DNA from: Minisyncoccota bacterium
Lineage (GTDB): Bacteria > Patescibacteriota > Minisyncoccia > Phycocordibacterales > UBA9973
Direction of reading: 5' to 3'
NCBI GenBank assembly: GCA_041659785.1
Contig: JBAZXO010000004.1
Coordinates: 13,270 to 77,269 of the forward strand
DNA length: 64,000 nucleotides
Both the position numbers and the translations under genes were made by a program. Under the pieces are notes generated by a model. That model saw nothing but the letters and a program-made list of their open reading frames with translations, was not told the origin of the DNA and did no database searches. Shown piece by piece: positions 7,458 to 15,398 of this stretch. The first letter of the stretch is position 1. The number at the start of each line of letters is the position of its first letter.

Positions 7458-8015
7458 TTATTTATAGTCTGGCTTAATCTCAGGGGCTCCTTCGATATGA
7501 CTAGAAATTCTTGCAAATGCATAAAGAAGACTAGAGAGCCTGTTTAAGTAAGACATCGTCTCTGCGCTCACATTTATTTTTCCTTCTTCTTTTGCAGCTA
7601 CTACTCTCCTCTCTGCTTTCCTAGACAAGGTGCGCGCAAAATCAAAAATTCCCCCTATCTCTGTCGCTCCACTGATAAAGAAATTTTTAATTGGCGGCAA
7701 AACTTTTTCAATTTCATCTACCATCGTTTCAATCTTGGTAATTTTTTCTGTTGTGATAGAGAGAGTAGCGCCAGCAACTTCTGCTTGAACAATAAATAAA
7801 TTCTGCTGAACCTCTAAAATAAGATCGGAAAATTTTACTTCACCGCTATTTATTTTAAAACTCATTCCTTTTGTTTTAGCGCGAGTAAGACCCAAAAAAG
7901 AATTTATCTCATCTAAAGTACCAAGGGCTTCTGCCACAGTCGAACTCTTGGAGATGCGTTGATCACATCCAAAAGTTTTTGTTGTGCCATTGTCCCCTTT
8001 TCTAGTGTAAAGCAT
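7458..8015 (-). CDS. PduO-type ATP:cob(I)alamin adenosyltransferase
   Basis: N-terminal LYTRKGDNGTT matches the PduO-type ATR signature (TGDKGxT); about 185 aa. Confidence 0.6.
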   Translation of the reverse strand: MLYTRKGDNGTTKTFGCDQRISKSSTVAEALGTLDEINSFLGLTRAKTKGMSFKINSGEVKFSDLILEVQQNLFIVQAEVAGATLSITTEKITKIETMVDEIEKVLPPIKNFFISGATEIGGIFDFARTLSRKAERRVVAAKEEGKINVSAETMSYLNRLSSLLYAFARISSHIEGAPEIKPDYK

Positions 8016-8153
8016 ATATTTATTTTATCACAAACTCGTCGCAGGCGTACTTTTTAGAATGCCTTGCGCAGGCGGACGCGCCGAGCAGTTCGCTGGGCTA
8101 GCAAGCCCAGATAGATTGCATTATAAAAAGTATGCCTAGAGAGAGTTTGTGAC

Positions 8154-10460
8154 TTATATTTCGCAAACTCCAGAAACACAAGCGAATTCTTTTGCTCCAG
8201 TAGTATTGTCTGCCATTTCGTATTGAGAAAGTTTAGAGAAATCAATAGTACCGATAGCCCTAGAACGCTTTTCGTATTCTTCTTTTGAGATTGCTTCATA
8301 AGGAGCAAGCTGATAGACGTGTTCTGATCGAGGAAGGAAAGAAAGTCCACCAATCCAATCCCAGTTTTCGTATACGAAATTTCCAACAGCAAGCCATTCA
8401 TCTGGGCCTACATAAATCGTCGCAGATGGATTGTGTTCTACGAAATGCTCCTTTAATCTTTTCCATTCTTTTATAAGATCTAATGCGGAAACTTCATCTT
8501 TAAAGACTGCTCCAGCTGGTGCCTTGACTGGGAATTCTAAGACGAAAGTAGTGGCTGACTCAACGGATTGCCCAACCTCTGGTAAGCAAGGTACTCCTTG
8601 ATCTCGAGCCATTTGAAGGAGGGTGTCGGTATGAGAAATACGTACTCGACGGATGAAATATGGAGCAAACCAAGGATGCATACCTGAACCGACGCCCAAG
8701 AGCTGTCCAGAGTTACCGTGAGGCTTCACGCAAGTAATAGCTGTGGAAGCATTAATACCGAAACGCTTTGCATACTTTTTGTTTGTTTCGATTGAATCAA
8801 GACGAAGAGTATCTAATACTTTATCATTTCGAATAACTGTATTGTCATAGTAACCAGTGAGCGATACACCGAGAAGCCTCTCTTCTTCGCAATTCTCTTT
8901 CCATTTTTTAGAAAGATAACCGAAGTTAGTCAAGGTGGATTGATATGTTCCGAGGAGTGTAGCTAATTCCATTTTTCTTTTTAATGTTTCTACTGTATCT
9001 TTCGGACGTATAACGATACTGGTTAAATTACAAAATTGTCTGGAGCGAAGATAAATTTCTCCACAAGGATTCATTCCTATCTGTCTTTCGTTTTTGATAG
9101 ATTCCCATCTGCGGGCGGGCAACTGTTTCTCTAATCCTCCGCGATTGAAAATTCCACGCTCACCTGACTTAGATTTTACTAAAGCTGTCCACTCATCTAG
9201 AAATTCTTCGGCTGATGGCTTTGCATTATAGACAGCTGAATTATTCGCCATTGCGCGCTGTTCTTCTGTTAAATAAAATTGTCCCTTCTTTGCATCTCGC
9301 ATTTCTGTATCTTCAAGTTCAGAAATAGAAATAAGTGCACTACGTCTGACACCTCCGGCTACGACGATCATCCCAATCTGACAAATGATGTCATGCATAT
9401 CTAAGTTTGAAAGACGGCGACCCTGTTTCGATAAAATTTTTCTTTTTGCAAATTCCATTAAATCCATAAGTGGTTGTGGTCCAGATGCTCTGCCTCCAGC
9501 AGTCTCTAGACGTGCTCCAGCTGGTCTAACCATAGAATAATCAAACTTAACATCTCTACCATCAAACCAAGCCTTAAGACCTAAGACGAAAGCATCTGCC
9601 CAGCCTTCCTTACTATCTACTACAACATGAGTGGAAGCCTTTTCTTTTGTTTGTTTTTTTATTTGAGGAAATTGTTGAACGTTCTCCCACTCGACAGCGA
9701 AGCCAAGCCCTGCACCACACATTGAAATATACATAATCTCACCCAAGTCTTGAGGACAAGTAGGAGCAATATAAGAGCAATTATAGGCCCAAACATTGGA
9801 CTGACGGCAAGCCTTGCCAGAAGACCACAAAAGACGCATAGAAGGACAAATATCTTGATTTAAAATGGCCTGGCGTACGTCTTCGTATTCCTTAGCAGAT
9901 AATTTATCTCCTAAATTCTCTTTCATATAAGCCATATAACGGTCAACAGTTTCTATCCAAGTCTCTCTGCGGCCTAATTCTGGAACCCACCTAGAATAAA
10001 ACTGATAGAAAATATATTCTGAATATGGGCTAGAGAAATATTTACTAGATTCTTCTACTGCAGCTCTGACAGATTCTGAAACCGGACCAAAACTCGCACG
10101 AAGTTCTGAACGCTTGTTACGATAAAGAATATATTTCTTGGCAGTATCAGCAAAACCATTTGCCATTAATTCTTTTTCTACGTAGTCCTGAATAATTTCA
10201 ACTGTTGGCAAAAATTTTGCTCCTTTGTGTGTGCTTGCGAGCTCGGTCTGAAGTTTTAGGAGACTTCTGAAAACACGATTAGCCACAGTGTGTGACTCTT
10301 CTTCTCCACCCTCTCCTGAAACTTCAAAAGCTTTAAAAATTGCCCGGGCGATTCTATCTAAGTCAAAAGGAACAACTTCACCAGTTCTCCTTCTGATTGA
10401 TTTTATTTTTGCCCTCTCACTTTTTAGAATTTTTTCGCTCGCTGTTTTTTTTGTTTTCAT
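8154..10460 (-). CDS. nrdJ: Adenosylcobalamin-dependent (class II) ribonucleotide reductase with N-terminal ATP-cone
   Basis: 768 aa with an ATP-cone (VVPFDLDRIARAI) and active-site NPCGEI typical of class II (class I has NLC.E). C-terminal CVSGVCEI thiol pair; no glycyl-radical motif. Confidence 0.7.
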   Translation of the reverse strand: MKTKKTASEKILKSERAKIKSIRRRTGEVVPFDLDRIARAIFKAFEVSGEGGEEESHTVANRVFRSLLKLQTELASTHKGAKFLPTVEIIQDYVEKELMANGFADTAKKYILYRNKRSELRASFGPVSESVRAAVEESSKYFSSPYSEYIFYQFYSRWVPELGRRETWIETVDRYMAYMKENLGDKLSAKEYEDVRQAILNQDICPSMRLLWSSGKACRQSNVWAYNCSYIAPTCPQDLGEIMYISMCGAGLGFAVEWENVQQFPQIKKQTKEKASTHVVVDSKEGWADAFVLGLKAWFDGRDVKFDYSMVRPAGARLETAGGRASGPQPLMDLMEFAKRKILSKQGRRLSNLDMHDIICQIGMIVVAGGVRRSALISISELEDTEMRDAKKGQFYLTEEQRAMANNSAVYNAKPSAEEFLDEWTALVKSKSGERGIFNRGGLEKQLPARRWESIKNERQIGMNPCGEIYLRSRQFCNLTSIVIRPKDTVETLKRKMELATLLGTYQSTLTNFGYLSKKWKENCEEERLLGVSLTGYYDNTVIRNDKVLDTLRLDSIETNKKYAKRFGINASTAITCVKPHGNSGQLLGVGSGMHPWFAPYFIRRVRISHTDTLLQMARDQGVPCLPEVGQSVESATTFVLEFPVKAPAGAVFKDEVSALDLIKEWKRLKEHFVEHNPSATIYVGPDEWLAVGNFVYENWDWIGGLSFLPRSEHVYQLAPYEAISKEEYEKRSRAIGTIDFSKLSQYEMADNTTGAKEFACVSGVCEI

Positions 10461-11213: not shown

Positions 11214-11708
11214 ATGGAAGAAAATAAGACAAGGTATGTTTGGGGATTTTTAAGGTTAGCAATGGGTTTGATCTTCTTGTGGGCCTATTTTGACAAGGTA
11301 TTTGGCCTTGGTTTTGCCACAAAACCAGAGCAAAGCTGGCTTGCTGGCGGGTCTCCTACCTCAGGATTCTTACAATTTGCTGTTCATGGGCCCTTTGCGA
11401 GCTTTTATCATAGCTTGGCAGGCATTCCTATGATTGATTGGCTATTTATGTTAGGTCTTCTATTTGTTGGAGTATCTTTAACCTTTGGCATTTTTGTTAA
11501 GTTAGGAAGTATCGCTGGAATAATGATGCTAGCCCTAATGTATACAGCTGTGGGTGTCCAACCGGCCAACAATCCATTTATAGATGATCATGTAGTCTAT
11601 ATAATAGTTATGGCGGGCTTAATGATGTCAGGTTCGGGTGATTATTTAGGCTTTGGAAAGGCTTGGTCTCGTACTCCCCTCGTTCAGAAATATAAAATAT
11701 TAAAATAA
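11214..11708 (+). CDS. DoxX-family membrane protein
   Basis: FLRLAMGLIFLWAYFDKVFG matches the DoxX-like N-terminus; 4 TM helices. Confidence 0.5.
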   Translation: MEENKTRYVWGFLRLAMGLIFLWAYFDKVFGLGFATKPEQSWLAGGSPTSGFLQFAVHGPFASFYHSLAGIPMIDWLFMLGLLFVGVSLTFGIFVKLGSIAGIMMLALMYTAVGVQPANNPFIDDHVVYIIVMAGLMMSGSGDYLGFGKAWSRTPLVQKYKILK

Positions 11709-11731
11709 TTCAGAAAATATAGGACAATTAT

Positions 11732-11759
11732 AAAAAAGCACCCATATGGGTGCTTTTTT
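11732..11759. terminator. Bidirectional intrinsic terminator
   Basis: AAAAAAGCACCCA-tat-GGGTGCTTTTTT. Confidence 0.6.
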
Positions 11760-11766
11760 ATAATTG

Positions 11767-11839
11767 TCCACCCTCAGGGACTCGAACCCCGGACCTGGCG
11801 CGTATAAGGCGCTCGCTCTACCAACTGAGCTAAGGGTGG
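11767..11839 (-). tRNA. tRNA-Ile (anticodon UAU); no encoded CCA (3' A73 followed by CAA)
   Basis: Acceptor CCACCCT/AGGGTGG, D-arm GCTCAGTTGGTAGAGC, anticodon loop CTTATAC, T-arm CGGGG-TTCGAGT-CCCTG. Confidence 0.6.
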
Positions 11840-12504
11840 TAATTTTTACTACTAATCTCAGAAATATATTTCATACCCATGATTATATATTCCCAGAGAT
11901 CTCTATTCTCAAACATAACACAGCAAGTTCCTTTCCCAAAACCATTTTTATAAGTTATCGATTTTAAACTTGTTTTTTTAATATATGATTTTCGAAATTG
12001 ACTTATAGGTATTCTAAGCTCTTTTGACCAAAAATCAAGACTCTGCTTAATATTCATATCAGAATATAAATGTAACTTAATTTTTAAATCTTTATTTTTT
12101 ATTCCAAATAATTTTAACCATTTTATAAAAAACTTAAGCATAGCTGGATTTGTATTTGTGAGAATCACAGAACAGTTACTAGCTTTTGTTCCCTCTCCCC
12201 AATATAAAAATAATCCTGCTAAAAATAAATCTCTTTTTGAAATATTTCCAATATCTTTTGAAACTTTCTTATATACTTCCTCTAAACGAGCTTCTTTTTT
12301 ATTTCGCATTGTATTTCTATAATGCTCAATACGAATAGGACTATTGTCTCTCAACTCTCGAATCCTTTTTTCATTAAGGGGAAAATCTCGAAGCCATCCA
12401 CTTAGAGTGCTTTTGCTAACATCAATCTTTTCTTTGATCTGACTATAGCTCATTCCTTTTTTGCGCATAGCTAAAGCCTTTTGTTTGTCCTTTTTTCTTG
12501 CCAT
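11830..12504 (-). CDS. HTH-containing LAGLIDADG-family homing-endonuclease-like protein
   Basis: N-terminal HTH (MSYSQIKEKIDVSKSTLSGWL) and a single LAGLIDADG motif (LFLAGLFLYWGEGTK). The last codons overlap the tRNA 5' end. Confidence 0.5.
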   Translation of the reverse strand: MARKKDKQKALAMRKKGMSYSQIKEKIDVSKSTLSGWLRDFPLNEKRIRELRDNSPIRIEHYRNTMRNKKEARLEEVYKKVSKDIGNISKRDLFLAGLFLYWGEGTKASNCSVILTNTNPAMLKFFIKWLKLFGIKNKDLKIKLHLYSDMNIKQSLDFWSKELRIPISQFRKSYIKKTSLKSITYKNGFGKGTCCVMFENRDLWEYIIMGMKYISEISSKNYHP

Positions 12505-12574
12505 AAATACGAACTAGCAAATACTAGTTATTAGTATAATATACCATGGTTCATGTATAAAATACAAAAAGAAA

Positions 12575-12595
12575 AACCGCCCTCCATACGGTTTC
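12575..12595 (-). terminator. Intrinsic terminator for the GC-rich cassette gene
   Basis: AAACCG-ccctccata-CGGTTT followed by a T-run on the minus strand. Confidence 0.5.
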
Positions 12596-12628
12596 CCTTT
12601 TGAAGTGCGGGTTGATGAAAAAACAAAG

Positions 12629-13282
12629 TTACTGTTGCGGAGCTACGAGGTGACGCCCGAGCCCGGCATTCCAGACGCGGTCGCGCGAGAACTCGAACAC
12701 GTAAGCCTCGAGCCGACCAATGCCGCCAAAGCCCGCGCTGGCAACGAAGACATTGGAAAAGTCATCGTTGATTGGCTCATCTCCCCTCGTGAGAAGGAAG
12801 AATGTGCCGTAGCCGTCCTTACGAAGTTTGTCGGGATGTTCCCTGCAGAACTTCAGAAACTGACTTCCGAGCAGGTGACGCTTTTTGAGATGGGAAACTG
12901 AGTTCCCGAAGAAATCTGGGAACTTACCATCCTCGATAAGCTCATTGACGTCAATGTCAATCTCAGATGCAACACCCGAGAAGATGATTCCCCAGTTTTT
13001 GAAGTCTGAGTCGAGCCATCCGTCGAAAACCTTCGTGGCTGTTTCGTAGGTGTCGGTACCGTCGGTGGCACCGATGGTGGCCGTGAAAAGCCGGCGAAGG
13101 TAGACTTTCGTCTCCTCCACGACAGTATATTTCCACTCTCTGACGAACTTCGCCAGATCAGCAAAAAAGTTTTCGCCATACACCGAACTTAATCGGTTGG
13201 CGATGTCGAGCAAAAGCCCGAGCGTTCTTGCTGGAACGCCGACGAGGGCACGAGTGAGTGGGCCGAGCATATCCTTGGACAT
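12629..13282 (-). CDS. Hypothetical protein encoded in a GC-rich, G/C-ending-codon cassette (probable horizontal acquisition)
   Basis: 217 aa. Strong SD (AAGGAG 9 nt upstream of the ATG). Codon third positions are overwhelmingly G/C, unlike every other gene here. No family recognised. Confidence 0.5.
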   Translation of the reverse strand: MSKDMLGPLTRALVGVPARTLGLLLDIANRLSSVYGENFFADLAKFVREWKYTVVEETKVYLRRLFTATIGATDGTDTYETATKVFDGWLDSDFKNWGIIFSGVASEIDIDVNELIEDGKFPDFFGNSVSHLKKRHLLGSQFLKFCREHPDKLRKDGYGTFFLLTRGDEPINDDFSNVFVASAGFGGIGRLEAYVFEFSRDRVWNAGLGRHLVAPQQ

Positions 13283-13327
13283 GATCTGTTTCTCCTTTCA
13301 GGAGCATGCATATGGTAACGGAATTGT

Positions 13328-13396
13328 CGCCATAGCTTTTAAGACACAATGTTGAACACTCAGTGTTTAACATTTCATGCTCTAAAAGCTATGGCG
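13328..13396. repeat. ~70-nt compound palindrome upstream of the cassette gene
   Basis: Outer IR CGCCATAGCTTTTA/TAAAAGCTATGGCG with nested AATGTTgAACACTcAGTGTTtAACATT, centred at 13361. Confidence 0.7.
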
Positions 13397-13472
13397 AATT
13401 TCGCAATTTTAAAGAACTTATAACCTACGTATTATAGCATACAAAATACCTATTTGTCAAATACAAAGAAAA

Positions 13473-15398
13473 TTAACGAACTAATTCAAGTGTTGCTTTT
13501 TCTTCTTTCTTTTTTAGAAGTATTCCATGAGCAGTAAGAATTTTTTCATATTCTTCTTGTTCCAAAGTTTCTACCTCAATCAATTTAAGTGCGATAGCAG
13601 TGAATGCTTTTTTATGTTCATCTAATACCTTTTCTGCAGTTTTTAATCCATCATTTATTATTCTTGAAACTTCTGCATCGACTTTCGTTGCTACTGCTTC
13701 TGAAAATTCTTTTTCTACTGACTCTCCGAATTGAGGTCGTCCACCAGAATCAACTAATGCAACTGGTCCGATAACATCAGACATTCCCCATCTCGTCACC
13801 ATCGCTCGTGCCAAATTTGTTGCCACTTGTAGATCACTCGATGGTCCGGTCGTGATATCTCCGAAAATTAATTTCTCAGCGACATATCCCCCGAGAGACA
13901 TTGCGATGTCGTCAATGAATTCTTTTTTAGATTGTAAGCGTCGCTCTTCGAGTGGAAGTTTCAAAGTATATCCACCGGCATTACCACGCGCGATGATAGA
14001 AACTTTGTGCACTGGATCTGCATGAGGAAGTACTGATGCCACGATAGCATGACCCGCTTCATGGTATGCAGTAATTTCTTTTTCTTTTTTAGAAAGCAGA
14101 TGACTTTTCCTTTCTGGACCCATCATCACTTTTTCAATAGCACGAATCAAATCAAATTGAAAAACTTTCTTGCGATTTTCTCTAGCGGCCAAGATTGCAC
14201 CCTCGTTCATTAAAGAATACAAATCCGCTCCAGAGAAACCAGGAGTACGCTCGGCAATTAATTTCAAATTAATATCTTCTGCAAGTGGCTTTTTAAGAGC
14301 ATGAATTTTAAGTATTTCTTCACGATCAGCACGATCTGGTAAATCAAGAATTACTTTTCTGTCAAAACGTCCTGGACGAACGAGAGCTGGGTCGAGCACA
14401 TCTGGCCTATTTGTCGCTGCCATTACGATAACTTTATCATTGGGTTCAAAGCCGTCCATCTCCACCAATATTTGGTTTAAAGTCTGCTCTCGCTCATCAT
14501 TCCCCCCGCCGAATCCTCCCCCACGAGTGCGTCCTATCGCATCTATTTCATCTACAAAGATTATTGCTGGGGCAGCCTTTTTAGCCATCTTAAATAAATC
14601 TCGTACTCGGCTAGCTCCTACTCCGACGAACATCTCCACGAATTCTGAACCTGACAAATGAAAAAATGGTACAGAAGCCTCTCCAGCTACTGCTCGTGCG
14701 AGCAATGTCTTACCCGTGCCGGGAGCACCAGTCAACATCACACCCTTTGGAATCCTTGCACCAATTTCTAAAAACTTTTTTGGACTTTTCAAAAAGTCTA
14801 CAATCTCTTTTAATTCTTCTTTCGCTTCCTTACATCCAGCGACATCTTTAAATGTTACGCGATTGTTTTTATCATTAGGATCTGTGATGCGGGCCTTGGA
14901 CTGACCGAAGGTAAATGCTTGCATGCCGGCACCTTTCACCTGCCTGGATAAATACCAGAAGAAAAGCAATATAAAAATTATTGGCAAGAGAAATGGTAAT
15001 AAATTTACCAGCCAATACATAAATCCACTTTCATTTTTTATTTCTATTTTTGTATTTGTAAGTGCTGCACTCGTAACTCCGTAATTAAAAAGTGTTTGCG
15101 AAAGAGCTCCACCAACTTCTTTCTTAGAAGTTTTAACTTCATCATTTTTATATGTGATAGTAAGCTTATCCCCTTCCACTAAAATATCTTTTACGTCTCC
15201 AGCTTGAACACTTTTCGCTAAATCAGAAATAGCAACTTCGGGAATAACTTTTCCATCTCCAGAAACCACTAAATAAAGTGCTGTGATGAGCATAAAGAAA
15301 AGCAAAGCCCCGGCAATATTTGCTCCAAAATTTGATTTCTTGGGAGCCTTTTTACCTTTGCCCTGTGGGTCTTTTTGTTTGAAAAAATTAAAATCCAT
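13473..15398 (-). CDS. ftsH: ATP-dependent zinc metalloprotease FtsH
   Basis: N-terminal TM helices, AAA domain [14 protein letters not shown] zinc motif; 641 aa. Confidence 0.9.

What the first reader, a model, noticed from the sequence alone, without database searches (positions are those of the whole stretch)
12575..13396. Self-contained GC-rich gene cassette with foreign codon usage, flanked by a terminator and a 70-nt compound palindrome
- **Composition.** Roughly 12590-13400 is conspicuously GC-rich against the AT-rich surroundings.
- **The gene.** The single gene (12629..13282, minus strand) uses almost only G/C-ending codons. It has a textbook SD (AAGGAG 9 nt upstream of the ATG) and its own hairpin terminator (12575-12595).
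- **Upstream palindrome.** A nested palindrome lies at 13328-13396: CGCCATAGCTTTTA...TAAAAGCTATGGCG enclosing AATGTTGAACACT-C-AGTGTTTAACATT.
- **Inference.** The protein (217 aa) matches nothing I recognise. This looks like a recent horizontal acquisition from a high-GC donor, placed between ftsH and an HTH-LAGLIDADG gene or tRNA locus.
- **What it might be.** It is a candidate for a novel accessory function; defence, immunity or toxin are guesses only.
Basis: partly seen in the sequence, partly recalled or inferred. Interest (0 to 1): 0.65.

Follow-up and report, generated by a model that had tools for sequence, protein, structure and literature searches.

The report
Orphan DGR target gene cassette
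The GC-rich island is a real, self-contained gene from a large unnamed protein family of ultra-small (CPR/Patescibacteria) bacteria whose C-terminal tip is normally rewritten by a neighbouring mutagenic reverse transcriptase (a diversity-generating retroelement), but here that machinery is missing, and the odd GC-richness and the upstream palindrome are traits of the whole family, not signs of a recent import.

Summary
ORF 12629-13282(-) has GC3 0.64, against 0.28 +/- 0.045 for 56 other ORFs (z = 8).

The gene is not unmatched. It belongs to a CPR-restricted family (2,386 clusters at 50% identity, no Pfam). In at least nine sister loci the family member is the target of a diversity-generating retroelement (DGR):
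- target, then template repeat (TR), then antisense Avd, then reverse transcriptase (RT);
- variable region (VR) versus TR mismatches fall only at TR adenines (22/22, 27/27, 23/23, 20/20).

The window protein keeps the VR scaffold. Its variable codons sit at the TRs' AAY positions. No TR, Avd or RT occurs anywhere in the 64 kb, so this is an orphan (or possibly remote) DGR target.

GC-richness is a family trait. Seventeen of 18 homologous genes measured are GC-rich in AT-rich hosts, while their own RT and Avd genes are AT-rich. Recent import from a high-GC donor is therefore not supported.

The palindrome is a conserved 5'-UTR RNA hairpin (8 loci, compensatory changes, sense-strand G.U pairs, no Rfam match).

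The predicted fold (pLDDT 96-97 over residues 61-217) has no Foldseek match in PDB or BFVD.

Verdict: new member of a known kind, with three unexplained family-level oddities.

The parts
13431..13460 (-). Sigma-70 consensus promoter of the cassette: TTGACA, 18 nt, TG-n-TATAAT. It begins 12 nt after the ftsH stop codon.
   Evidence: 12 of 12 hexamer matches with an extended -10. Equivalent TTGAC(A/T)...TGTATAAT promoters lie upstream of all homologs.
13407..13419 (-). Conserved leader motif AAGTTCTTTAAAA, just downstream of the predicted transcription start.
   Evidence: Present in the window, L011, L014, L020, L023, L024, L022 and L033.
13327..13397 (-). The 'compound palindrome': a conserved 5'-UTR hairpin. 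The 16-bp basal stem is UCGCCAUAGCUUUUAG / UUAAAAGCUAUGGCGA. The apical stem is variable.
   Evidence: arms 100% complementary; 8 distinct loci fold into a 52-118-nt hairpin, dG -22 to -40 kcal/mol; 97.7% of cells paired, 5 of 16 pairs with compensatory changes, 0 of 500 shuffles as good, slid controls 37-48% paired. U.G and G.U pairs work only on the sense strand. No Rfam match.
13292..13304 (-). Mini-hairpin CUCCU-GAA-AGGAG that pairs the Shine-Dalgarno sequence (AAGGAG 13292-13297, 9 nt before the ATG).
   Evidence: MFE and centroid structures. The same CUCC...GGAG arrangement occurs in L002 and L014, and in weaker form in L017.
12629..13282 (-). 217-aa ORF (NCBI MFA5932325.1, WC793_03035), member of a CPR-specific DGR variable-protein family. 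GC 0.535, GC3 0.642.
   Evidence: AF2 model: pLDDT 89 overall.
13118..13282 (-). N-terminal module of about 55 aa, predicted as three helices. It is shared with proteins that carry unrelated C-terminal variable domains.
   Evidence: P0033 73%, P0037 60%, P0045 59% identical over this part only. P0037 is itself DGR-linked (16 of 16 mismatches at TR adenines). pLDDT 63-77.
12749..13102 (-). Conserved alpha/beta core domain (aa 61-178).
   Evidence: pLDDT 96-97. Conserved columns Y61, L62, G75, F86, E114, F121, Q141, L153, F161. No Foldseek match in PDB or BFVD.
12634..12748 (-). Variable-region (VR) homolog, aa 179-217, TTCGTTGCC...CCGCAAC. Conserved scaffold residues alternate with hypervariable codons.
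   Evidence: positions 182, 184, 186, 188, 190, 192, 194, 196, 200, 202, 205 and 208 have 2.9-3.6 bits of entropy in 158 family members. Eleven of these align with AAY/AAG codons of the L002 TR. Scaffold F179, V180, A181, L191, W204 and P215 are kept. The 3' end CCGCAAC is shared with all VRs.
12567..12601 (-). Terminator-like hairpin with a T tail downstream of the VR. It is the local version of a hairpin conserved after the VR in sister loci (AAACCGyyyCUCC...GGAGGGACGGUUUUU).
   Evidence: 12-pair consensus, 4 pairs with compensatory change. The window copy breaks several of those pairs and uses a shifted stem.
11830..12566 (-). Where sister loci carry TR (480-540 nt after the VR start), Avd and RT, the window has only a short spacer and a conserved HTH-protein gene. 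Homology to DGR loci stops at about 12562.
   Evidence: no second VR-like copy; no RT or Avd by tblastn or phmmer in 64 kb; extent of homology.

Best explanation
The island is a complete expression cassette: consensus promoter, structured 5' leader, SD, ORF and terminator. It encodes a variable protein of the kind diversified by diversity-generating retroelements (DGRs) in CPR bacteria.

In sister genomes the last ~115-120 nt of the gene (the VR) is overwritten by adenine-mutagenised cDNA. The cDNA is copied from a template repeat (TR) about 0.5 kb downstream, by an RT with its Avd partner. This randomises about 12 codons that alternate along two predicted beta-strands and a loop. The result is a variable binding face on a constant alpha/beta scaffold.

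In this window the TR-Avd-RT module is absent. The gene is a detached (orphan) target that most likely expresses one fixed variant. I put 'frozen' versus 'still diversified in trans by a DGR outside the window' at roughly 2:1.

The GC-rich, A-poor coding sequence and the upstream palindrome (a 5'-UTR RNA hairpin, probably a regulatory or stabilising element for expression) are inherited family traits.

Shown: the anatomy, family membership, DGR linkage and adenine-specific VR/TR differences in sister loci, natural VR variation in a sister cluster, and the absence of TR/Avd/RT in 64 kb.

Inferred: the binding function, the frozen state, and the role of the hairpin.
For: (1) Family. There are 51 homologs, all from CPR or metagenomes. 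A profile search finds 2,386 clusters at E <= 1e-3.

(2) DGR linkage in sister loci, with VR/TR mismatches falling only at TR adenines:
- L002/L009 22 of 22; L011 27 of 27; L029 23 of 23; L031 20 of 20.
- L019 19 of 20; L027 17 of 18.
- L033 16 of 16 (a different C-terminal domain with the same N-terminal module).
- L006 joined to L035 across an assembly break.

(3) The adjacent genes are a genuine DGR RT and Avd. The RT is 30% identical to BPP-1 Brt (E = 5e-44) and carries LGNLTSQ aligned to Brt's IGSLTSQ. The Avd matches Pfam bAvd and BPP-1 Avd at E = 7e-5.

(4) Hypervariable columns in 158 family members coincide with TR AAY codons, and the window sequence fits this scaffold/variable pattern. 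Eight of its 12 variable codons are NNC and 2 are NNT, as expected from AAC/AAT templates.

(5) Natural variants of the DGR-linked P0005 (six sequences at >= 90% identity) differ mainly (about 13 of 19 varying columns) within VR positions 195-223.

(6) Nothing in the 64 kb resembles a TR, an RT or an Avd. There is no second family member.

(7) Other orphan copies exist: L012, L024/L032 and L017. Decaying DGRs also exist: L015 has lost its RT and shows non-A mismatches, and L014 has an indel in its VR.

(8) The promoter, leader hairpin, CCGCAAC end and post-VR hairpin are shared with DGR-linked loci.
Against: - No TR is available to show that this particular VR was ever rewritten. The assignment rests on homology and on position-specific variability.
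- Only 64 kb of an 81-kb contig of an incomplete MAG could be read, so a DGR elsewhere in the genome cannot be excluded.
- My attempt to find a cognate TR in public metagenomes was uninformative, because it did not recover the window itself.
- The window protein's 90%-identity cluster has a single member, so population variation is unknown.
- All solved DGR variable proteins use a C-type lectin fold. This family shows no sequence or Foldseek similarity to it.
- The biological ligand is unknown.
Confidence: 0.8

Rival explanations
1. Remote (trans) DGR target. The gene is still actively diversified by a TR-Avd-RT module located outside the 64-kb window, either on the remaining 17 kb of the contig or elsewhere in the genome.
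For: - The ORF is intact and the scaffold residues are kept.
- The IMH-like end CCGCAAC and a post-VR hairpin are retained.
- Variable codons still show the NNC/NNT footprint.
- Non-adjacent and remote targets are documented for other DGRs (Wu et al. 2018, PMC5758913, read).
Against: - In every DGR-linked family member the TR lies 480-540 nt from the VR start.
- The conserved post-VR hairpin is partly disrupted in the window.
- Orphan copies have somewhat lower GC than linked ones (small n).
Confidence: 0.25
2. One reading: a recent horizontal acquisition from a high-GC donor, carrying a novel accessory function.
For: - Strong compositional outlier (GC3 z = 8.1).
- Arg- and GARP-shifted amino-acid use.
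- Cassette-like structure.
- Family members occupy different contexts, and one syntenic empty site is known.
Against: - The same GC-richness is seen in 17 of 18 homologous genes in AT-rich hosts, at only 31-57% protein identity.
- The RT and Avd of the same cassettes are AT-rich.
- No high-GC host was found.
- The best DNA similarity is 64-78%.
- No integrase or transposase, and no convincing flanking repeats, occur in the window.
- The family is absent from viral contigs.
Confidence: 0.1
3. A toxin, immunity or anti-phage defence gene unrelated to DGRs.
For: It is a small, isolated accessory gene of unknown function next to a tRNA gene.
Against: - No PADLOC, Pfam, PHROG or NCBIfam match.
- No partner gene.
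- The family is repeatedly and specifically coupled to TR-Avd-RT.
Confidence: 0.03
4. Assembly chimera, or a non-coding GC-rich fragment.
For: Abrupt composition change. GC-rich DNA yields spurious ORFs in several frames.
Against: - An independent assembly contig spans both junctions at 100% identity.
- The 217-aa frame has hundreds of homologs and a confident fold.
- Flanking promoter, leader and terminator are conserved with homologous loci.
Confidence: 0.01

Closest known systems
Bordetella phage BPP-1 DGR (mtd VR, avd, TR, brt), the prototype diversity-generating retroelement
   Same: Sister loci have a homologous RT (30% identity, E = 5e-44, IGxxxSQ-type motif) and Avd. They carry a ~115-120-nt C-terminal VR, a TR rich in AAC codons, strictly adenine-specific VR/TR differences, and an inverted repeat after the VR.
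   Different: - The window has only the target gene.
- Gene order in this clade is target-TR-Avd(antisense)-RT, not target-avd-TR-rt.
- The element is cellular and CPR-restricted, not phage-borne.
- The target shows no similarity to Mtd (hhalign probability 0.1%).
CPR-restricted DGR clade 2 and its unannotated targets (Roux et al. 2021, PMC8144416); 'UVR1-6' VR classes of unknown fold in CPR DGRs (Wu et al. 2018, PMC5758913)
   Same: Same phylum. Small single targets without a transmembrane segment or any recognisable domain, with the VR at the C-terminus. This family is very probably one of those catalogued clusters.
   Different: I could not map it to a named cluster, because the supplements are not held. 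Those surveys start from RTs, so detached copies like this one are not covered. I did not find family-wide GC-richness or the 5'-UTR hairpin mentioned in the text I read.
Non-adjacent or remote DGR targets (for example Treponema and Legionella-type DGRs; Wu et al. 2018) and degenerate DGRs
   Same: A VR-bearing gene located away from any RT.
   Different: For true remote targets a matching TR exists in the same genome. Here none is known. In this clade the linked copies are always in cis.
C-type lectin-fold variable proteins (Mtd, TvpA, AvpA, TaqVP)
   Same: A constant scaffold presents a C-terminal, solvent-exposed set of AAY-encoded variable residues.
   Different: - No Pfam hit (FGE-sulfatase, DUF1566 and the like) in any of 23 members.
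- No PDB sequence-profile hit.
- No Foldseek hit in PDB (best E = 0.45, TM < 0.2) despite pLDDT 96-97.
SD-sequestering leaders and 5'-UTR stem-loops that stabilise mRNA or bind regulators
   Same: A long stable hairpin in the leader, plus a small hairpin that pairs AGGAG with CUCCU.
   Different: No Rfam family matches. The conserved part is the basal stem sequence, while the apex is free to vary in sequence and length. That pattern suggests protein or RNase recognition rather than a ligand-binding aptamer. One apparently active DGR target (L002) lacks the 5' arm.

Membership tests
Diversity-generating retroelement (complete system) in this window | Reverse transcriptase of the DGR clade (IGxxxSQ motif) near the target | tested here: not met
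   tblastn and phmmer (--max) of a sister-locus RT against all six frames of the 64 kb gave nothing better than E ~ 1. Sister loci do carry it.
Diversity-generating retroelement (complete system) in this window | TR/VR repeat pair whose differences fall at TR adenines | tested here: not met
   blastn (word size 7) of the cassette against the window found only the self-match and the palindrome. A degenerate 'X-or-A' pattern matches only the VR itself in the window. The public metagenome scan was uninformative.
Diversity-generating retroelement (complete system) in this window | Accessory Avd gene | tested here: not met
   No Avd-like ORF.
DGR target (variable protein) gene family | Homology to proteins that are demonstrably DGR targets | tested here: met
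   53% identity to P0003 (L002: 22 of 22 mismatches at TR adenines). Also 39-51% identity to P0005, P0029, P0019 and the L011 protein, and 40% to P0022 (alignment A2), all with TR and/or Avd/RT in cis.
DGR target (variable protein) gene family | C-terminal VR in which hypervariable codons correspond to AAY codons of TRs, separated by a conserved scaffold | tested here: met
   Entropy profile of 158 members compared with TR codons. Natural variants of P0005 differ mainly (about 13 of 19 varying columns) in the VR.
DGR target (variable protein) gene family | IMH-like 3' boundary and an inverted repeat downstream of the VR | tested here: inconclusive
   CCGCAAC(AG)TAACTTKG is conserved, including in the window. 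The consensus 12-bp hairpin is conserved in 7 of 8 loci, but several of its pairs are broken in the window, which uses a shifted stem. A role in retrohoming is not established for this clade.
C-type lectin-fold DGR variable proteins | CLec fold or CLec-type sequence signature around the VR | tested here: inconclusive
Recently acquired genomic island from a high-GC donor | Atypical composition relative to the host | tested here: met
   GC3 z = 8.1.
Recently acquired genomic island from a high-GC donor | Composition explained by the donor: close relatives in high-GC genomes, with linked genes sharing the composition | tested here: not met
   All homolog hosts are AT-rich. The linked RT and Avd genes are AT-rich. 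Homologs are distant yet equally GC-rich.
Recently acquired genomic island from a high-GC donor | Mobility genes or flanking direct repeats; absence from sister genomes at the same site | tested here: inconclusive
   No integrase or transposase is present, and only weak AT-rich repeats flank the window cassette. A related DGR cassette (L002) does have 50-nt flanking repeats and an empty site in L017.
Known RNA family (Rfam) for the upstream palindrome | Match to a curated covariance model | tested here: not met
   No hit at E <= 10 over 11500-14000, apart from the tRNA and noise. None in four sister loci either.
Structured RNA element (generic) | Conserved pairing with compensatory changes in independent sequences | tested here: met
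   16-pair basal stem: 97.7% of cells paired, 5 pairs changed on both sides, 0 of 500 shuffles as good, slid controls 37-48% paired. There are only 8 sequences, and the arms were chosen by motif.
   LAGLIDADG_3 scores E = 0.16, 12.7 bits against a cutoff of 22.5. HTH_23 is significant. There are 2,530 homologs, and the top 120 listed are 72-96% identical, which is the pattern of a conserved CPR gene.

The most novel reading that the evidence does not exclude
This family may be a non-C-type-lectin scaffold for DGR hypervariation, which would be the first alternative fold. It comes with its own conserved 5'-UTR RNA hairpin. Its GC-rich, adenine-poor coding sequence persists at 31-57% protein identity inside AT-rich genomes, next to AT-rich RT and Avd genes. 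That composition could reflect an undescribed DGR-linked force, for example selection against sense-strand adenines or biased conversion, which relaxes once a copy is orphaned as in this window.
Probability: 0.2. Interest if true: 0.75.

Novelty: new member of a known kind. Interest (0 to 1): 0.45.

Why it matters
CPR bacteria are among the organisms richest in DGRs, yet their variable proteins have no known fold, ligand or regulation.

- The locus shows that a striking compositional island in a CPR genome can be a detached DGR target rather than foreign DNA. This matters for HGT screens and for DGR surveys that start from the RT and so miss orphan targets.
- It also exposes three family-level features that can be tested directly: a confidently predicted scaffold with no Foldseek match in PDB or BFVD, a conserved leader hairpin absent from Rfam, and a sharp GC split between the target and the RT/Avd genes of one 2.7-kb element.
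- If the GC or adenine bias is tied to DGR activity, it would be a new constraint on how these elements evolve.

Tried and rejected
- Curated libraries (Pfam, PHROGs, PADLOC, NCBIfam) gave nothing for the ORF. Pfam on 23 family members gave only noise.
- The cognate-TR search in JGI metagenomes used a pattern allowing 'VR base or A' at each variable position. It returned 0 hits and did not recover the window's own VR, so it is uninformative.
- The family search in species-representative genomes returned only 3 loci, and the source MAG is not among them.
- Viral contigs contain neither a family member nor the leader hairpin. A phage origin is therefore not supported.
- I tried to find the RT of the source MAG through locus-tag names in an RT homolog search. 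The clade is too large (>7,900 hits at E <= 1e-60) and no WC793 entry appeared among the 120 listed.
- hhalign against Mtd gave probability 0.1%.
- Flanking direct repeats around the window cassette are only short AT-rich matches of 14-21 nt at 76-86% identity, which I judged to be chance or promoter similarity.
- An integron attC, an IS200/IS605 end or a DNA operator was considered for the palindrome. I rejected these as the main reading because the arm spacing varies from about 30 to 95 nt, because the G.U wobbles work only on the sense strand, and because the element lies inside the 5' UTR.
- Homing-endonuclease hitch-hiking with the neighbouring gene was rejected. The neighbour is a conserved HTH gene and is unrelated to the LAGLIDADG gene of L014.
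- Paul et al. 2017 (PMC5436926) and the supplements of Wu et al. 2018 are not held.
Full report
**Observation**

The window is an AT-rich (36.6% GC) contig of a CPR/Patescibacteria MAG. NCBI names the protein MFA5932325.1, WC793_03035, Candidatus Paceibacterota.

ORF 12629..13282(-) is 53.5% GC with GC3 0.642. The 56 other ORFs of at least 150 aa have GC3 0.276 +/- 0.045 (max 0.395), so z = 8.1. Third positions are C-rich and A-poor (A .13, C .41, G .23, T .23, against A .34, C .14, G .14, T .38 elsewhere). Amino-acid use is also shifted: R/(R+K) is 0.54 against 0.33. The 12501-13350 stretch is the only extended GC island in the 64 kb.

- SD. AAGGAG lies 9 nt before the ATG.
- Terminator. The terminator-like hairpin is slightly larger than stated, at 12567-12601.
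- Palindrome. Arms 13327-13341 and 13383-13397 are 15 of 15 complementary.
- Codon claim. 'Almost only G/C-ending codons' is an overstatement (64%).
- Assembly. An independently assembled Logan contig (L001) is 100% identical to 11807-13514 and crosses both junctions. This answers the misassembly worry.

The neighbours are FtsH (Peptidase_M41 plus AAA), an HTH-protein gene and tRNA-Ile(UAU).

**What the gene is**

Curated libraries give nothing. A search of public proteins finds 51 homologs, all from CPR bacteria or metagenomes, the best at 57% identity. A profile of 23 members finds 2,386 clusters at 50% identity with E <= 1e-3. The family is large and simply unnamed.

Genomic context gave the decisive result. 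The 53%-identical homolog P0003 is followed by a 117-126-nt direct repeat of its own 3' end, an antisense Avd gene (Pfam bAvd) and an RVT_1 reverse transcriptase. All 22 differences between the two repeat copies fall at adenines of the downstream copy, mostly in AAC/AAT codons. This is the signature of a diversity-generating retroelement.

The same architecture and adenine-only pattern recur in independent loci:

| Locus | VR/TR mismatches at TR adenines |
|---|---|
| L002/L009 | 22 of 22 |
| L011 | 27 of 27 |
| L029 | 23 of 23 |
| L031 | 20 of 20 |
| L019 | 19 of 20 |
| L027 | 17 of 18 |
| L033 (different C-terminal domain, same N-terminal module) | 16 of 16 |

L006 also belongs here. Its gene looked isolated only because the assembly broke at the VR/TR repeat, and the overlapping contig L035 carries the TR and RT.

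The RT is 30% identical to BPP-1 Brt (E = 5e-44), with LGNLTSQ aligned to IGSLTSQ. The Avd matches BPP-1 Avd at E = 7e-5.

In an alignment of 158 family members, positions 182, 184, 186, 188, 190, 192, 194, 196, 200, 202, 205 and 208 (window numbering) carry 2.9-3.6 bits of entropy. Between them lie near-invariant scaffold residues (F179, V180, A181, L191, W204, P215). Eleven of the 12 variable positions are AAY/AAG codons in the L002 TR. Six natural variants of the DGR-linked P0005 differ mainly (about 13 of 19 varying columns) in this segment.

The window protein fits the pattern exactly. Eight of its 12 variable codons are NNC and two are NNT, the footprint expected from AAC/AAT templates.

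**What is missing here**

In linked loci the TR starts 480-540 nt after the VR start. In the window that position lies inside the HTH-protein gene. Nothing in the 64 kb (12.6 kb downstream, 50.7 kb upstream) resembles a TR, an RT or an Avd, and there is no second family member. Homology to DGR loci stops just after the terminator, at about 12562.

Other detached copies exist: L012 next to a Y1 transposase gene, L024/L032 and L017. Decaying DGRs also exist: L015 has lost the RT and shows non-adenine mismatches, and L014 has an indel in its VR.

I therefore read the window gene as an orphan DGR target. Whether a DGR elsewhere in the genome still rewrites it could not be tested. My degenerate-pattern scan of public metagenomes failed to recover even the window itself. 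The literature says that CPR DGRs usually have one target in cis and that remote targets belong to another lineage (Wu et al. 2018). That makes 'frozen' the more likely state, at roughly 2:1.

**The GC-richness**

Across 18 homologous genes, the gene GC is 0.48-0.62 (GC3 0.53-0.85) in 17. Flanking DNA is 0.31-0.47 GC. The RT and Avd genes of the same cassettes are 0.34-0.40 GC. The homologs are only 31-57% identical in protein and 64-78% in DNA. No high-GC host or viral copy was found.

This contradicts a recent import from a high-GC donor. Something maintains the bias in this gene family, including in a second target family that shares only the N-terminal module (L017 0.61, L033 0.56). Orphan copies are slightly lower (window 0.535, L012 0.48, L024/L032 0.52), but the sample is small. 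I cannot explain the bias, and it is the most curious thing about the locus.

**The palindrome**

It lies between a perfect sigma-70 promoter (TTGACA, 18 nt, TG-n-TATAAT; 13460-13431) and the SD, so it is in the 5' UTR.

The same element occurs upstream of eight distinct family genes, including the differently-tailed L033. It has a basal stem of conserved sequence and an apical part that varies in sequence and length but always pairs. The hairpins are 52-118 nt with dG -22 to -40 kcal/mol.

On the 16 basal pairs, 97.7% of cells pair and five pairs show compensatory changes. No shuffle of 500 does as well, and slid registers pair at 37-48%. The U.G and G.U pairs work only on the sense strand. 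That favours an RNA hairpin rather than a protein operator or a cruciform.

The whole leader folds with z = -4.8, and a small hairpin pairs AGGAG with CUCCU. No Rfam family matches. The motif is unique in the window and is specific to the upstream side of family genes. L002, an apparently active DGR target, lacks the 5' arm, so the hairpin is not needed for retrohoming.

My best guess is an expression-control or mRNA-stabilising element recognised through its basal stem. Confidence in that is low.

**The protein**

AlphaFold2 with the family alignment gives pLDDT 89 overall and 96-97 for residues 61-217. The model has a three-helix N-terminal module of lower confidence and an alpha/beta domain. 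In that domain the VR forms two beta-strands (178-185 and 191-197) with alternating variable residues, then a loop and a last strand. This is the geometry of a variable binding face.

No similarity to C-type lectin-fold variable proteins or to anything else was found:
- Foldseek finds nothing in PDB (best E = 0.45, TM < 0.2) or BFVD.
- A PDB sequence-profile search finds nothing.
- hhalign against Mtd gives probability 0.1%.

**Verdict**

This is a new, detached member of a known kind of system. I score interest as moderate. The orphan target itself is ordinary for DGR biology. The target-versus-RT composition split, the conserved leader hairpin and the unmatched fold are family-level leads worth following.

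Noticed in passing
L002:5823-5872 and 8500-8549 (same in L009); compare L017:14418-16542: A 50-nt direct repeat (84% identical) brackets the whole target-TR-Avd-RT cassette. It is the 3' end of the ABC-F gene, and its downstream copy now forms the last 13 codons of the RT ORF (..QIRIDEVLDLEK). In the syntenic genome L017 the ABC-F gene abuts the pseudouridine-synthase gene with no DGR, giving an empty site. This suggests the DGR cassette inserts as a unit with a long target duplication.
   Followed up: partly
L002:7148-7549(-) and 7548-8549(+); also L011, L014, L031, L033: In this CPR DGR clade Avd is encoded antisense, between the TR and the RT, and the Avd and RT start codons are back to back. 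A TR-RT transcript would therefore run antisense through avd.
   Followed up: partly
window 13118-13282(-); P0033 (L017), P0037 (L033), P0045, P0047: The N-terminal ~55 aa (MSKDMLGPLTRALVGVP...), together with the SD region, is 59-74% identical in proteins whose C-terminal variable domains are unrelated. It looks like a shared module, suggesting domain shuffling among DGR targets or a common docking partner.
   Followed up: partly
L002, L011, L014 and others: target gene versus RT/Avd: There is a sharp composition split inside one 2.7-kb element: target GC 0.55-0.62, Avd 0.40, RT 0.34-0.38, host 0.36-0.47. I have no explanation.
   Followed up: partly
window 11830-12504(-): The neighbour labelled 'HTH-LAGLIDADG' has a solid HTH_23 domain but only a sub-threshold LAGLIDADG_3 match (E = 0.16). 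It has 2,530 homologs, and the top 120 listed are 72-96% identical. It is an unusually conserved CPR protein of unknown role rather than an obvious mobile endonuclease.
   Followed up: partly
window 11722-11769 and 11766-11839(-): A perfect 24+24-nt palindrome (GGACAATTATAAAAAAGCACCCAT/ATGGGTGC...) forms a bidirectional terminator-like hairpin that abuts the 3' end of a tRNA-Ile with anticodon UAU. The HTH gene's stop overlaps the tRNA by 10 nt.
   Followed up: no
L006 (end of contig) and L035/L036 (start of contig): Two public contigs of one Nomurabacteria genome overlap by 298 nt, and the break is at the VR/TR repeat. Assemblies fragment at DGRs, so 'orphan' calls on short contigs are unreliable. 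This does not affect the window, which is contiguous on both sides.
   Followed up: yes
L012:8733-9419(-): Another orphan family member (P0024) sits directly next to a Y1 (IS200/IS605-type) transposase gene. L014 also has one 6.5 kb upstream.
   Followed up: no
P0052 (476 aa), P0053 (560 aa), P0057, P0059, P0164: Some family representatives carry two or three tandem copies of the ~160-aa domain.
   Followed up: no
L012 and L019, upstream of the family gene: These two loci share a second leader type, a series of short hairpins ending in ACCYGTGAGTAACGGGTG, in place of the long hairpin. L015 and L017 have yet other leaders.
   Followed up: no
P0010, P0041: Source annotations 'urease gamma subunit' and 'AlpA transcriptional regulator' on two family members look spurious, since no Pfam support was found.
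   Followed up: no
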